Source of the DNA: a virus
Length of the DNA: 50,781 bases
Strand: one strand, 5' to 3'
Virus record (IMG/VR): IMGVR_UViG_3300045988_030121
Span: 1 to 50,781 of that record
Shown: piece after piece, positions 38,786 through 43,578 of the stretch
How positions within the stretch are numbered: the stretch's first letter is position 1
Layout of the letters: each line of letters opens with the position of its first letter
Translations under genes and position numbers: made by a program
Notes under the pieces: model-generated
Told to the model about the DNA's origin: nothing
What the model saw: the letters and a program-made list of their open reading frames with translations, nothing else
The model's database searches: none

Positions 38786-39562
38786 ATGATTGGAACAATT
38801 ATCGGTGATATTGTCGGGTCTCGCTTTGAGTTTGCAAACCATCGAAGCAAGCATTTCGACCTGTTCACCATCAAATGTGACTTCACGGATGACACCATCA
38901 TGACGATGGCCGTTGCCGATGCCTTGCAGAAAGGCAAGAGGTTCGACCGCGCATTCCGTGAATTTGGGAAACGGTACAACCGACCAATGGGCGGTTATGG
39001 CGCATCATTCCGCCAATGGCTTGACACGCCCGGAATGCCGGCTTACTATTCCTTTGGGAATGGCGCGGCCATGCGTGTTTCCCCCGTGGCCTTGCGCTTC
39101 AAGGATAAGCCCCTTGAAGATTGCCTTGCAATGGCCGAACAAACGGCCGTGGTGACACACAACCACCCCGAGGGCATCAAGGGTGCAAGATGCGTTGCAC
39201 ACCTCATTTGGGCGGCTCTCAATGGCGCAACAACAAAGCTGGCTATGTTCGCCATCGCAAGCAAGTATTATGAGGAAATTGATGGGCTTTCCGTGGATGA
39301 CATCAGGCAAGACAACATCTTTGATGAATCATGCCAAGTTACCGTTCCGCAAGCCATCGAATGTTTCCTTGAAGCATCTTCCTTTGAGGATGCCATCAGG
39401 AATGCAGTGTCCATCGGGGGTGATTCCGACACCATCGCGGCCATCACCGGCGGCATCGCGGAAGCATTCTTTGGTGTTCCGTTTGATTTGCAAGTGCAAG
39501 CCCGGCGATACCTGACACCAGAATTTATCAACATCCTAAATCGTGAATACAATGGCAAATAA
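38786..39562 (+). CDS. ADP-ribosylglycohydrolase (ARH/DraG family)
   Basis: 258 aa. Blocks are GDIVGSRFEF, FTDDTIMTMAVADAL, GGYGASF..W, GNGAAMRVSP and GGDSDTIAAITGGIAEAFFG (metal-binding Asp clusters). Confidence 0.88.
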   Translation: MIGTIIGDIVGSRFEFANHRSKHFDLFTIKCDFTDDTIMTMAVADALQKGKRFDRAFREFGKRYNRPMGGYGASFRQWLDTPGMPAYYSFGNGAAMRVSPVALRFKDKPLEDCLAMAEQTAVVTHNHPEGIKGARCVAHLIWAALNGATTKLAMFAIASKYYEEIDGLSVDDIRQDNIFDESCQVTVPQAIECFLEASSFEDAIRNAVSIGGDSDTIAAITGGIAEAFFGVPFDLQVQARRYLTPEFINILNREYNGK

Positions 39563-39872
39563 AGCTGAACTTTTGAAGTCTTGCCGGTTTTATGATGGCA
39601 AGGATGATTGTGGTTTCCCATCGGGGAGTGAGGAAGAAACCCTTTGGGCAATTGAACGGCTTTGGGTAAACAAGACATTACAGAAAGATGTCTTATTTAT
39701 CGAATCCGCGGTCAATGATTTCCTTGCCTATGGCTTGAACACTTTGGAAAGGCATGATGGCATTCCCGTTGAACTGAAAGCCGTTCTTTTCAATCGGTTC
39801 TCACAATACAATGAAAGGGTGGACACGGCGGCATTCAGAGACTATTATAAAAGACACTATGCAAAAGATTAG
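39552..39872 (+). CDS. Hypothetical protein (island gene 12)
   Basis: 106 aa from the ATG at 39552; the track start is a GTG. Confidence 0.5.
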   Translation: MANKAELLKSCRFYDGKDDCGFPSGSEEETLWAIERLWVNKTLQKDVLFIESAVNDFLAYGLNTLERHDGIPVELKAVLFNRFSQYNERVDTAAFRDYYKRHYAKD

Positions 39873-42800: not shown

Positions 42801-43578
42801 AGCCCACCACGAAATCAAGGTTCTGCCACCGCAAGAAATCGGATTCCCTGTAAGCCATATTGATTTCTGACCTTGTGAGCCTTTGGGCATTCTTGACACT
42901 TGACCGGTACACGCCTTGTCCGGGATGGTATGCCTTTGCCGCTTTGGAAAGATGAAGATTACCGTGCTTGTCACGGACACGCCTGAACAGCTTGTTCGGT
43001 TCACGCAAGTTCTCTTTCACATCGCGGGCAAGTTGTGCCGCGCTACGCCCCTCTCCAAGCCCCACATCAAGCCCAAGTTCGATTTGGTCTTTATATTGCC
43101 CCACATACTTCCACACCCTTTGCGAAAGGTTCATACCCTCAATCTTTCGCTCCTGAAAGGCTTTGAGCGCATCAAGGTTCTTGTCTTGCCATTTCTTCAT
43201 CTTGGCCGTGGAAACCTTGCTTGTGTCCCCGATGGATGCAAGGAAAGCATCATTTTTTTGGTTTGCAAAAAGCCATTGTTTGCGGGAGCCGGTCTCAATC
43301 ACGGCCGTAACGCCATTTGCAAGCCCCTCAATGGTCTTTTGCATCACCGCCTGAACACTTGGATAATCAGCAAAAGAAAAGGGCTTGTCGGGGTCATAAT
43401 GACCTTTTGCGGCCGCATTGGTTATCGCCACGGTCGCACGGTCGAAAAGGGTTTGCACGGCCGCCGCATATTGCTCCGTTCTTTTGTAGTGTTCGACATC
43501 GAAGCCCTGAATGGAAAACCTCTTTGTCTTGACCTTTTGCCCCTTTTTAACGCCCGGTTTGCCCTGTTTCTTTGCCAT
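39895..43578 (-). CDS. Polyvalent virion protein: MuF/SPP1 gp7-like head morphogenesis domain + HEXXH zincin + C-terminal ADP-ribosyltransferase
   Basis: 1227 aa, directly after the portal gene. The MuF-like block is LTRSEINMAYRESDFLRW..GFEI...W HPQC.C. HHEFGH is at aa 565-570. The ART R-S-E triad is GYTSGSAYITEPLR, WIKRD (Arg 1078), FMSCGS and DENEVLLQRGT (ExE). Confidence 0.85.
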   Translation of the reverse strand: MAKKQGKPGVKKGQKVKTKRFSIQGFDVEHYKRTEQYAAAVQTLFDRATVAITNAAAKGHYDPDKPFSFADYPSVQAVMQKTIEGLANGVTAVIETGSRKQWLFANQKNDAFLASIGDTSKVSTAKMKKWQDKNLDALKAFQERKIEGMNLSQRVWKYVGQYKDQIELGLDVGLGEGRSAAQLARDVKENLREPNKLFRRVRDKHGNLHLSKAAKAYHPGQGVYRSSVKNAQRLTRSEINMAYRESDFLRWQNLDFVVGFEIHRSTHKPLCKCKLCERLVGRYPKTFKFKGWHPQCMCYATPILMDEETRNANEQAELIAALTGKPYKPKRAKNEVLDVPVGFKEWISENVAAQENWASTPYFIADNFIDGQLSLGLKQGANDGGVKTIMQAIEVAKGFGISHIDFGNATVEQANIILEALQEEFDYFGDAGIPLNGLSFAKGDMHTKKEGGHYNTQTNEIVINLDIFGDDADSGKPILEKIASLEVQKAKLQEQIMQFEAKLGINPAADKMLKQDIKQMKSRVTDIEIKIGKFQKDIAAGHDEITFTYAYSLKDVKDRVKATIHHEFGHLFDHKFNGGEGYAGNAYNSTYAKTTDREQLAEWFSQWMMGDKEGIPQELLDAFENKTAVDTFKPQLMAIMPQIEQARQVAQEWGLSTAQIDVGIQNKNMHSITTGIEQIVATGQKLLEDVNAWIAKIMPLMQEAMNHGIPVSHYAVMMKKLQGNHSTWSFDKASYTSAITELQEAIKEAKDNEHLSTLLVDVADAKAQFGSDAVHAAFNAVESKLNQWNQKNPALDYLKMKLEWEIKYLDDPAHHKYVTWEVAQKAYKKKLADVSYQMERQELISQAQMPIATLQSSKSPKGKELVSEWQALVAKSDASISLMRSKLDEINKFVQHTLSRRKPKSSNDSLQYTLTDEEFEDAAFALCSRRITDALSGKAPLTKLQESKYNEISIILSGDNPDNKKIRTLLKQLGEDIDDVYSQSRKDIAKWHLTAQDADDYFHKFQAAYWKKATDDEKRAFAGYTSGSAYITEPLRAISGHYYEAPWRHSDDEIERHIKSLTKALDIDICTNDVWIKRDAGAWDAEYVFGIPSLAAYRNNPSALVGRIGQDNSFMSCGSCRETRFTCTGKKDVIYNIYCPKGTKGVYCQAFSSCGTFGSSWDGVKKANPGKHDENEVLLQRGTKMRITKAEYDKAQDMWYIDVEVLGQETRNFKVNHSSNGTYCTFD

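What the first reader, a model, noticed from the sequence alone, without database searches (positions are those of the whole stretch)
38786..43578. Virion-associated ADP-ribosyltransferase encoded tail-to-tail with an ADP-ribosylglycohydrolase
The 1227-aa gene after the portal gene combines three parts. It has a MuF/SPP1 gp7-like head morphogenesis domain (about 42664-43131), an HEXXH zincin motif (HHEFGH, 41869-41883), and a C-terminal ADP-ribosyltransferase domain (about 39898-40551). The ART domain has the full R-S-E signature: YTSGSAYITEPLR, WIKRD, FMSCGS and ENE. MuF fusions of this kind are generally thought to be packaged and delivered with the DNA.

Converging on its 3' end, and separated only by a shared terminator (39871-39893), is an ARH/DraG-family ADP-ribosylglycohydrolase (38786-39562) with intact Asp clusters. 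A writer and an eraser of ADP-ribosylation side by side suggests two options. The ARH could be an antidote that protects the producing cell or the lysogen from the ART. Alternatively, the two could act separately: the ART on host takeover and the ARH on reversing host ADP-ribosylation-based defence of the DarT type.
Basis: partly seen in the sequence, partly recalled or inferred. Interest (0 to 1): 0.7.

Follow-up and report, generated by a model that had tools for sequence, protein, structure and literature searches.

The report
Bxa-type phage toxin with two antidotes

Summary
The ORFs and motifs are real. The 1227-aa gene (39895-43578, -) has four parts: a MuF-like head-morphogenesis N-terminus, a conserved HEXXH module, a helical linker and an R-S-ExE ADP-ribosyltransferase (Pfam PF03496, E=1.5e-14). 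The 258-aa gene (38786-39562, +) is an intact ADP-ribosylglycohydrolase (PF03747, E=2e-40).

It overlaps the ARH stop codon, and the hairpin follows it.

The gene order 78 aa, ARH, small ORF, converging on the MuF-ART gene, is that of the published Bacteroides stercoris Bxa system (PMC11699363). There Bxa is an arginine ART toxic to bacteria, BAH reverses the modification and Bsi blocks the toxin.

- In 84 related ART loci, 83 have the Bsi-family ORF and 80 the ARH. None of 27 MuF loci with other toxin ends has either.
- A relative 97% identical in DNA has swapped exactly the ART end plus the small ORF (39578-41232) and kept the ARH at 98%.

The HEXXH module is absent from Bxa and rare. It matches the anthrax lethal factor active site (E=3e-4) and may be a self-processing protease.

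Verdict: new, somewhat variant member of a known toxin-immunity kind. Virion packaging is untested.

The parts
39895..43578 (-). 1227-aa multidomain toxin gene: MuF-like N-terminus, HEXXH module, helical linker, ADP-ribosyltransferase
   Evidence: ORF. PHROG 16625 'Bxa ADP-ribosyl transferase' E=4.8e-130. The exact protein is present in public metagenomes, in a 90%-identity cluster of 19 members.
42448..43542 (-). MuF-like head-morphogenesis domain (aa 13-377)
   Evidence: 65-74% identical to the N-terminus of more than 100 homologues with different C-termini. phrog_7625 head morphogenesis E=2.3e-80. AlphaFold pLDDT 79; Foldseek BFVD gives 67 hits at E<=1e-3 to minor capsid / MuF-like proteins. 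Pfam PF04233 gives no hit.
41704..42447 (-). Inserted zincin-like (anthrax lethal factor-like) HEXXH module, aa 378-625. H566-E567-x-x-H570 at 41869-41883, Y591 at 41806-41808, E598 at 41785-41787.
   Evidence: Absent from 865-869-aa Bxa-type proteins. A profile of the core matches the lethal factor catalytic site, E=2.8e-4, aligning HExxH, Y728 and E735. HExxH plus ExxAE is kept in 40 of 42 family representatives. The predicted helix / 3-strand sheet / HEXXH helix / Glu helix carries a coiled-coil hairpin insert. Foldseek is not significant.
40699..41703 (-). Helical middle/linker domain (aa 626-960), shared at low identity with the Bxa middle domain
   Evidence: BLASTP q737-1223 against 865-aa homologues, 28-29%. 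A conserved LSTLLVDVADAKAQFGSDAVHA stretch marks a recombination junction.
39949..40656 (-). C3/VIP2-type R-S-ExE ADP-ribosyltransferase domain (aa 975-1210). R1078 at 40345-40347, S1116 at 40231-40233, E1174-N-E1176 at 40051-40059.
   Evidence: Pfam PF03496 E=1.5e-14. Invariant R, S, ExE columns. Profile against PDB: Lmo0066 2e-15, Plx2A 2e-12, C3 1e-11, Certhrax, Vip2, CdtA.
39871..39888 (.). G+C-rich hairpin (AGGGGGCAATCGCCCCCT) followed by TTTTTTG on the + strand, between the two converging stop codons
   Evidence: Not conserved: in the Bxa-type locus L003 the converging genes overlap.
39552..39872 (+).
   Evidence: phrog_19606 E=1.4e-20. The same PHROG is hit by the ORF in this position in the Bxa-type locus L003 (1e-7), L043 (1e-19) and L026 (4e-5). 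Its start overlaps the ARH stop. Present in 83 of 84 ART loci. It co-varies with the ART domain in the cassette swap.
38786..39562 (+). 258-aa ADP-ribosylglycohydrolase (BAH-type enzymatic immunity protein)
   Evidence: Pfam PF03747 E=2e-40. 53.5% identical to the ARH of a Bxa-type locus, with E15 conserved. Metal-site TDD and DxDT are aligned to ARH3. NCBIfam DraG 1e-16 and Tri1 6e-15, both below cut-off.
38548..38784 (+). 78-aa ORF, homologue of the ORF in the position of BACSTE_RS09440 (reported not to protect)
   Evidence: 49% identical to the 78-aa ORF of L003. Also found downstream of 12 of 27 MuF genes without an ART, so it is not ART-specific.
37965..38558 (+). 197-aa conserved neighbour of unknown function in the same + strand gene island (35503-39872)
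   Evidence: Homologues at 47-55% identity lie downstream of MuF genes with non-ART ends. No Pfam, PHROG or NCBIfam hit.
39578..41232 (.). Exchangeable toxin-immunity cassette: aa ~783-1227 of the toxin plus nearly all of the Bsi-family ORF
   Evidence: Against IMG/VR contig L043, DNA is 97% identical over 36170-39577 and 41233-44000, with no detectable similarity in between. ART domain 35% identical, Bsi 29%, ARH 98%.
43587..45050 (-). Portal gene immediately upstream (context)
   Evidence: Pfam SPP1_portal E=2.8e-41.

Best explanation
This is a Bxa-family MuF polymorphic toxin locus with two immunity genes. It lies in a complete, circularly assembled genome (unit 50,662 bp) of a temperate tailed phage whose relatives are found in Bacteroidales.

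The 1227-aa protein joins four parts:
- a MuF-like head-morphogenesis domain;
- a lethal-factor-like zincin module;
- a helical linker;
- a C3/VIP2-type ADP-ribosyltransferase with an ExE motif, which by analogy with Bxa modifies arginines on many proteins and is toxic in the bacterial cytoplasm.

Two genes on the opposite strand neutralise it in the producing cell. Their start and stop codons overlap, so they are probably translationally coupled.
- The 106-aa Bsi-family protein is predicted to bind and block the ART active site. It is specific for its own ART variant.
- The ARH removes ADP-ribose from modified arginines. It is generic across ART variants.

Shown here: the domain assignments, the conserved catalytic residues, the gene order, the co-occurrence, and the exchange of ART and Bsi as one cassette. 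Shown only in the B. stercoris homologue: toxicity, arginine specificity, BAH hydrolysis and Bsi binding. Inferred: packaging through the MuF domain, and expression of the immunity genes from their own + strand operon.
For: - PHROG 'Bxa ADP-ribosyl transferase' E=4.8e-130; Pfam ART and ARH hits lie well above their cut-offs.
- The gene order (78 aa, ARH, about 110 aa, converging on MuF-ART) is the same as in a Bxa-type 869-aa locus (L003) and in the cultured Bacteroides phage Versailles.
- Component identities to L003: MuF N-terminus 65%, ARH 53.5%, the 78-aa ORF 49%, ART about 33%, Bsi 22% (E=5e-5).
- All Bsi-position ORFs hit phrog_19606.
- Experiments on Bxa, BAH and Bsi are in PMC11699363.
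- Co-occurrence: 83 of 84 ART loci have Bsi and 80 of 84 have ARH. Of 27 non-ART MuF loci, 0 have either.
- Cassette swap with ARH retained.
- Integrase present, and a relative integrated in a 208-kb contig.
- ART and ARH both find their best or near-best PDB relatives in one entry, 8za7 (Lmo0066 and Lmo0067), and the ARH also matches Tri1 (6dre).
Against: - No experiment was done on this protein.
- The ART domain is only 29-34% identical to Bxa-type domains, so target range and toxicity cannot be transferred with certainty.
- The Bsi C-terminal half, where the residues reported as important in Bsi lie, does not align between the window protein and the Bxa-type protein.
- The loci counted are not independent; many are near-identical contigs.
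- P0073/L003 is taken as 'Bxa-type' from its length (869 aa), the PHROG name and E15 in its ARH. It has not been verified as the B. stercoris sequence.
- Three ART loci carry Bsi but no ARH (L102, L109, L110), so the ARH is dispensable in some relatives.
Confidence: 0.85

Rival explanations
1. Two separate weapons. The ART is an injected host-takeover enzyme. The ARH is an independent counter-defence enzyme that erases host ADP-ribosylation-based immunity of the DarT type, not an antidote to the ART.
For: - Head-packaged ARTs such as T4 Alt exist, and MuF fusions are proposed to be injected (PMC5512222 and PMC9503650).
- The ARH is kept at 98% identity while the ART is exchanged. This could also mean the ARH has a role independent of any one ART.
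Against: - ARH is found only where the MuF protein ends in an ART: 80 of 84 against 0 of 27.
- BAH has been shown by experiment to reverse Bxa modification and to rescue cells.
- The enzyme has the ARH/DraG fold and is nearest to arginine-ADPr hydrolases.
- DarT modifies DNA and is reversed by macrodomains (established knowledge).
Confidence: 0.07
2. The biological target is the animal host, not bacteria. As with Bxa, the toxin is released at lysis and ADP-ribosylates eukaryotic proteins to benefit the lysogen population. The two immunity proteins only prevent self-poisoning before release. This is compatible with the molecular roles in the best explanation; it differs on purpose.
For: - Bxa modifies non-muscle myosin II and improves gut colonisation (as summarised in PMC11699363 and PMC10083569).
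- Relatives come from gut and rumen metagenomes and from gut Bacteroidales.
Against: - The ART domain is only about a third identical to Bxa's, and whole ART cassettes are exchanged between near-identical phages. That is the pattern of bacterial polymorphic toxin-immunity arms races rather than of a fixed host-directed factor.
- Nothing in the sequence speaks to eukaryotic targets.
Confidence: 0.25
3. Injected bacterial effector with lysogen immunity. The MuF domain carries the toxin into the capsid and the protein enters a new cell with the DNA. The zincin module cuts the ART free. Cells already lysogenic express Bsi and ARH from the + strand island and are protected, so the system acts in takeover or in competition between lysogens and non-lysogens.
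For: - MuF-like fold and position next to the portal gene.
- SPP1 gp7 is a portal-bound minor capsid protein (cited in PMC5576092).
- The immunity genes lie in a separate operon of opposite orientation to the late genes.
- MPTase autoprocessing is predicted for polyvalent virion proteins (PMC5512222).
Against: - Packaging or injection of any MuF toxin is still undemonstrated (PMC10083569).
- No promoter was identified for the island: the Bacteroides-type pattern search gave 0 matches.
- Most relatives lack the zincin module; only 7 of 84 ART loci carry it. So it is not needed for the basic system.
Confidence: 0.3

Closest known systems
Bxa-BAH-Bsi of the Bacteroides stercoris prophage (Brown et al. 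2021 as cited; Alexei et al. 2024, PMC11699363)
   Same: Same gene order and orientation. MuF-like N-terminus 65% identical, ARH 53.5% identical with E15 kept, and the small ORF belongs to the same PHROG family. R-S-ExE ART at the C-terminus. Temperate Bacteroidales phage, with the gene next to the portal gene.
   Different: - The protein is 1227 aa, not 869.
- It has an extra zincin-like module of about 250 aa and a longer linker.
- Its ART domain is only about 33% identical and its Bsi about 22%.
- A hairpin lies between the converging genes, which overlap in the Bxa-type locus.
Apk2-Aph1-Tis1 MuF toxin system of Bacteroides caccae (PMC10083569)
   Same: The logic is the same: a MuF-fused toxin, one immunity protein that blocks the toxin and one enzyme that reverses its product. 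The binder is always present and the enzyme variably so, as seen here (Bsi 83 of 84, ARH 80 of 84).
   Different: The toxin there is a (p)ppApp synthetase and the enzyme a (p)ppApp hydrolase.
Tre1-Tri1 (Serratia type VI secretion) and Lmo0066-Lmo0067 (PDB 8za7): ART toxin with ARH-family immunity
   Same: An arginine-type ART is paired with a DraG/ARH-fold hydrolase. The window ARH matches Tri1 (6dre, E=6e-10) and Lmo0067 (E=1e-11), and the ART profile matches Lmo0066 best (E=2e-15).
   Different: Delivery there is by secretion systems, not a phage head protein. In Tre1-Tri1 one protein both binds and hydrolyses (my recollection of the published work, not read here); here the two functions are split between two genes.
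Polyvalent / MuF-fused virion effector proteins (Iyer et al. 2017, PMC5512222; Jamet et al. 2017, PMC5576092)
   Same: MuF, zincin-like metallopeptidase (related to lethal factor by profile search) and ART are hub domains combined in single phage proteins encoded among head genes. The peptidase is predicted to process the protein.
   Different: This exact combination within the Bxa family, and this module with its coiled-coil hairpin insert, were not found described in the papers read. The module family is small: 43 clusters among 1.84 billion representatives.
Phage T4 Alt
   Same: A head-associated ART proposed as the precedent for injected ARTs.
   Different: As far as I recall (not checked here), T4 Alt is not fused to a MuF domain and has no adjacent ARH or binding immunity gene. 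T4 is virulent.

Membership tests
Bxa-type MuF toxin with BAH and Bsi immunity | N-terminal MuF/head-morphogenesis domain, with the gene next to the portal gene | tested here: met
   65% identity to the Bxa-type N-terminus. PHROG head morphogenesis E=2e-80. Foldseek matches to MuF-like minor capsid proteins. Portal gene immediately upstream.
Bxa-type MuF toxin with BAH and Bsi immunity | C-terminal ADP-ribosyltransferase with a catalytic Glu (ExE) | tested here: met
   PF03496 E=1.5e-14. R1078, S1116, E1174 and E1176 are invariant.
Bxa-type MuF toxin with BAH and Bsi immunity | Adjacent ARH1-like hydrolase with catalytic E15 and metal-binding Asp clusters | tested here: met
   PF03747 E=2e-40. 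E15, T34-D35-D36 and D213/D215/T216 are present. 53.5% identical to a Bxa-type BAH.
Bxa-type MuF toxin with BAH and Bsi immunity | Small Bsi-family ORF between the ARH and the toxin gene | tested here: met
   The 106-aa ORF at 39552-39872 hits phrog_19606, as do the ORFs in this position in L003, L043 and L026. Pairwise E=5e-5 to the L003 ORF.
Bxa-type MuF toxin with BAH and Bsi immunity | Toxicity of the ART in bacteria, and rescue by the ARH and by the small protein | not testable with these tools
   Shown only for B. stercoris Bxa, BAH and Bsi (PMC11699363).
Pfam Phage_Mu_F (PF04233) / NCBIfam SPP1 gp7 family | Score above the curated threshold of the family model | tested here: not met
   No hit even at E<=1 on the N-terminal 380 aa. 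No NCBIfam hit. The domain is MuF-like by PHROG and by fold only.
R-S-E (C3 / VIP2 / iota-type) ADP-ribosyltransferases | Arg, Ser-x-Ser-type motif and ExE motif in order within the ADPrib_exo_Tox fold | tested here: met
   The best PDB relatives are Lmo0066, Plx2A, C3, C3larvin, Certhrax and Vip2.
DraG (TIGR02662) and Tri1 (NF041672) equivalogs | Score above the equivalog cut-off | tested here: not met
   61 bits against a cut-off of 337, and 55 bits against 490. It is a member of the ARH superfamily but not of these equivalog families.
Zincin-like metallopeptidase, lethal factor-like gluzincin | HEXXH on one helix and a Glu zinc ligand on the following helix | tested here: met
   H566-E-x-x-H570 and E598 are invariant and kept in 40 of 42 family representatives. 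They lie on consecutive predicted helices after a helix plus three-strand sheet. The profile aligns them to LF H686/H690/E735 and Y591 to LF Y728, E=2.8e-4.
Zincin-like metallopeptidase, lethal factor-like gluzincin | Recognisable fold similarity, or a curated family score (Pfam ATLF / M34) | tested here: inconclusive
   Foldseek against PDB and against BFVD gave no hit at E<=1e-3. Pfam gives only sub-threshold hits: Peptidase_M43 0.019 and SprT-like 0.085 for the window module, and ATLF 0.006 for the shorter module of P0095.
   The protein hits only ADP_ribosyl_GH, with no Macro domain hit. Activity on DNA is not testable here.
Polymorphic toxin system | Conserved N-terminal part with exchangeable C-terminal toxin domains, each linked to its own immunity gene | tested here: met
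   N-termini 65-74% identical carry PF03496, PF15644 or other ends. The ART-plus-Bsi cassette is exchanged between 97%-identical phages.

The most novel reading that the evidence does not exclude
The inserted lethal-factor-like zincin module is an active protease. It either cuts the ART cassette free from the capsid-anchored MuF domain, during maturation or after ejection, or it is a second warhead for which no immunity gene has been recognised. The split between a variant-specific binder (Bsi) and a variant-independent eraser (ARH) would then let phages swap toxin cassettes freely while keeping one universal safety enzyme.
Probability: 0.3. Interest if true: 0.5.

Novelty: new member of a known kind. 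Interest (0 to 1): 0.25.

Why it matters
The main value here is correct filing. Three smaller points add to what the papers I read report.

- The cassette swap shows directly that the small binder travels with its ART domain while the hydrolase is shared between ART variants only 35% identical. This is what a specific-plus-generic double immunity predicts.
- The 78-aa neighbour also accompanies MuF toxins without an ART. That argues against it being an ART immunity protein.
- A rare lineage of these toxins carries a conserved lethal-factor-like zincin module. It gives a concrete handle on the open question of how, or whether, MuF toxins are processed and delivered.

Tried and rejected
- Megablast of 38500-43600 against GenBank phages gave no match. 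Only a protein-level search found relatives.
- The search for homologous proteins with the HEXXH module alone returned nothing, although proteins already in hand are 74-97% identical. I treat this as a tool miss, not as evidence.
- Foldseek of the module model against PDB and against BFVD gave nothing significant. The long coiled-coil hairpin probably dominates the comparison.
- A weak phmmer hit of aa 456-520 to GapR/UPF0335 (E=0.18) falls in the coiled-coil hairpin. I set it aside as compositional.
- Pfam and NCBIfam MuF models do not detect the N-terminus.
- A Bacteroides-type promoter pattern (TTTG-N17-21-TAnnTTTG) has 0 matches in the window. The promoter of the + strand island therefore remains unidentified. 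The sigma-70 scan is not informative for Bacteroidales.
- Host identification failed. The genome scan found only relatives at 75% identity or less, in Alistipes, Parabacteroides, Prevotella, Porphyromonas, Muribaculaceae and B. pyogenes. The flanks of the integrated copy L046 reach only phage genes.
- The Bsi residues reported as important (K89, E92) could not be mapped. The C-terminal halves do not align, and P0073's neighbour does not carry K-Y-x-E at those positions.
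Full report
**What is there**

The window is a circularly assembled phage genome. Its first 119 nt repeat at 50663-50781, giving a unit of 50,662 bp. It carries a tyrosine integrase at 12609-13895, so the phage is temperate.

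On the - strand the late genes run small terminase, large terminase, SPP1-type portal (43587-45050) and then the 1227-aa ORF at 39895-43578.

Downstream of that ORF lies a + strand island of about eleven small genes (35503-39872). After it, the - strand scaffold and capsid genes resume.

The last four genes of the island are:
- a 197-aa ORF (37965-38558);
- a 78-aa ORF (38548-38784);
- the 258-aa ARH (38786-39562);
- a 106-aa ORF (ATG 39552, stop 39872).

The start of the 106-aa ORF overlaps the ARH stop codon by 11 nt. A G+C-rich hairpin at 39871-39888, with a T-run on the + strand, lies in the 22 nt between the stop of the 106-aa ORF and the stop of the 1227-aa ORF.

**Check of the observation**

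- ADPrib_exo_Tox covers aa 1006-1201, E=1.5e-14.
- ADP_ribosyl_GH covers aa 1-231 of the 258-aa protein, E=2e-40.
- Pfam Phage_Mu_F gives no hit, even at E<=1 on the N-terminal 380 aa. NCBIfam gives none either.

The N-terminus is nonetheless MuF-like on three grounds.
- It hits PHROG head-morphogenesis families (E=2.3e-80).
- It is 65-74% identical to the N-terminus of over a hundred homologues.
- An AlphaFold model (pLDDT 79) matches 67 predicted viral structures at E<=1e-3. These are named minor capsid, MuF-like or head morphogenesis protein.

The motifs hold up.
- R1078, S1116, E1174 and E1176 are invariant across homologues down to 42% identity.
- HEFGH sits exactly at 41869-41883.
- The ARH keeps E15, T34-D35-D36 and D213-S-D215-T216. 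These align to the metal site of ARH3 structures.

**What it is**

PHROGs names the best family for the large protein 'Bxa ADP-ribosyl transferase' (E=4.8e-130).

The literature holds the answer. In Bacteroides stercoris the prophage protein Bxa (869 aa) has a MuF N-terminus, a middle domain and a C-terminal ART. It ADP-ribosylates arginines on many proteins and kills E. coli. The adjacent hydrolase BAH (catalytic E15) removes the modification. The small protein Bsi binds Bxa and blocks it. A third small neighbour, RS09440, gives no protection (PMC11699363).

An 869-aa homologue (P0073, locus L003) shows the same layout as the window: the toxin gene, then converging on it a 111-aa ORF, a 258-aa ARH and a 78-aa ORF. 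Identities to the window proteins are:

| Component | Identity to window |
|---|---|
| MuF N-terminus | 65% |
| ARH | 53.5% |
| 78-aa ORF | 49% |
| ART domain | about 33% |
| Small ORF | 22% (E=5e-5) |

The small ORFs in this position from the window, L003, L043 and L026 all hit the same PHROG, 19606. They share an N-terminal C-[RK]-x-[YF]-x-G ... W-x-x-E pattern, with divergent C-terminal halves.

The cultured Bacteroides phage Versailles (host B. caecimuris) has the same arrangement. There the toxin is annotated only as hypothetical.

**Co-occurrence**

I translated all ORFs of 127 fetched loci and searched them with profiles of the ART domain, ARH, Bsi family, 78-aa ORF and the HEXXH core.

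| Loci (with at least 1.3 kb downstream) | Bsi-family ORF | ARH | 78-aa ORF |
|---|---|---|---|
| 84 with a MuF-ART gene | 83 (convergent) | 80 (convergent) | not counted |
| 27 with a MuF gene, other C-terminus | 0 | 0 | 12 |

Many of these contigs are near-identical, so the counts overstate the number of independent events. The pattern is still unambiguous, and it matches the co-occurrence stated in PMC11699363.

Three ART loci (L102, L109, L110) have Bsi but no ARH. One locus (L125) has neither. This parallels the Apk2 system, where the binder is constant and the hydrolase variable.

The 78-aa and 197-aa ORFs also accompany non-ART toxins. That fits the failure of RS09440 to protect. It argues that they belong to the phage backbone rather than to ART immunity.

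**A natural exchange experiment**

IMG/VR contig L043 is 97% identical in DNA to the window over 36170-39577 and 41233-44000. It shows no detectable similarity over 39578-41232.

The exchanged 1.65 kb runs from codon ~10 of the small ORF, through the hairpin and the ART domain, to about aa 782 of the toxin. That end lies just after the conserved stretch LSTLLVDVADAKAQFGSDAVHA.

Across this swap the ART domains are 35% identical and the small proteins 29% identical. The ARH stays 98% identical.

This is the signature of a polymorphic toxin with a cognate, specific immunity protein. It also shows that one ARH serves quite different ART domains, as expected for an enzyme that acts on the product rather than on the toxin.

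**The extra module**

Compared with 865-869-aa relatives, the window protein has a clean insertion of aa ~379-629.
- It contains HEFGH. In relatives only 36-40% identical the motif reads HEIGH or HELGH. An invariant Tyr and an E-x-x-A-E follow it.
- A profile of this core finds the catalytic site of anthrax lethal factor as the best match among all PDB sequences (E=2.8e-4). The alignment pairs H566/H570 with LF H686/H690, Y591 with Y728 and E598 with E735. The CBASS protease CapP (E=0.011) and Pro-Pro endopeptidase (E=1.1) come next.
- A shorter version of the module in P0095 gives a sub-threshold Pfam ATLF hit (E=0.006).
- The AlphaFold model (pLDDT 77) has the zincin order of elements: helix, three-strand sheet, HEXXH helix, Glu helix. 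A long coiled-coil hairpin is inserted before the active-site helix.
- Foldseek found nothing significant in PDB or BFVD. The assignment therefore rests on the sequence profile and motifs.

The module family is small. It has 43 clusters among 1.84 billion representatives. Of 42 representatives examined, 40 keep both motifs; the other two match only the coiled coil.

The module occurs after MuF domains in three settings: before an ART, before a glutamine deamidase toxin (P0011, P0095), or as the C-terminus itself. Among the ART loci only 7 of 84 carry it, all close relatives of the window.

Iyer et al. (PMC5512222) described lethal-factor-like zincin peptidases as the commonest domain of 'polyvalent' virion proteins. 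They found them linked with MuF and ART domains and proposed autoproteolytic processing or effector roles. The kind is therefore known, but this instance within the Bxa family was not mentioned in the papers I read.

**How it most likely works**

Shown by sequence here:
- the domain make-up and intact catalytic residues of the ART, the ARH and the zincin module;
- the coupled Bsi and ARH genes;
- the strict ART-Bsi-ARH linkage;
- the co-exchange of ART and Bsi.

Shown only in the homologue:
- the ART is an arginine-directed, promiscuous and bactericidal enzyme;
- the ARH reverses its modification;
- the small protein binds and inhibits it.

Inferred:
- The ExE motif suggests arginine as the target here too (established knowledge of R-S-E ARTs).
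- The toxin is made with the late head genes.
- The immunity genes are expressed from their own oppositely oriented operon.
- The MuF-like domain brings the protein to the portal or procapsid, as for SPP1 gp7.
- The zincin module processes the protein.

Whether the toxin finally acts on bacteria after injection, on competitors after lysis, or on the animal host as reported for Bxa cannot be told from sequence.

**Verdict**

The antidote reading is correct and already established in a relative. The DarT-countering reading has no support.

This is a new and rather divergent member of the Bxa / MuF polymorphic toxin kind. It has one uncommon architectural addition. Interest is modest.

Noticed in passing
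window 16719-19407 (RT 16719-17750 -; repeats 17903-18016 and 18117-18230; target ORF 18091-19407 -): A diversity-generating retroelement. An RVT_1 reverse transcriptase (E=7e-17) lies next to a 114-nt repeat pair 82% identical. In 20 of 21 mismatches the copy at 17903-18016 has T on the + strand, which is A on the coding strand. That makes it the template repeat. The variable repeat lies at the 3' end of the 438-aa ORF in the tail region.
   Followed up: partly
window 1-119 and 50663-50781: The first 119 nt are repeated exactly at the end. The window is therefore a circular assembly of a complete genome of 50,662 bp.
   Followed up: yes
window 12609-13895 (+); locus L046: A tyrosine integrase with an Arm-DNA-binding domain is present. 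A phage from the same 90%-identity cluster sits inside a 208-kb metagenomic contig, so these phages integrate. The host species was not identified.
   Followed up: partly
window 37965-38784 (+) and loci L004-L019: The 197-aa and 78-aa ORFs upstream of the ARH also occur downstream of MuF genes that end in non-ART toxins (12 of 27 loci for the 78-aa ORF). They are not tied to the ART, and their function is unknown.
   Followed up: partly
loci L102, L109, L110, L125: A few MuF-ART loci have the Bsi-family ORF but no ARH by ORF profile search or tblastn. One (L125) has neither. The hydrolase is therefore dispensable in some lineages.
   Followed up: partly
window 485-1561 (-), 2159-3169 (-), 8018-10015 (-): A C5 cytosine DNA methylase, a Rha/ANT antirepressor-type protein and a 665-aa SMC/MukB-like ATPase lie in the early region.
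   Followed up: no
window 42021-42213 (aa 456-520 of the toxin): A weak phmmer similarity (E=0.18) to the DNA-binding protein GapR (UPF0335) falls in the coiled-coil hairpin of the HEXXH module. It is probably compositional.
   Followed up: no
proteins P0008, P0018, P0092, P0105, P0112: Some homologues carry a second HEXXH (HEITH or HEICH) near the C-terminus in place of the ART. This may be a metallopeptidase toxin end. It was not examined further.
   Followed up: no
protein P0099: A 998-aa homologue with a different C-terminus is listed with a longest contig of 50,781 bp, the same length as this window. This is probably coincidence and was not checked.
   Followed up: no
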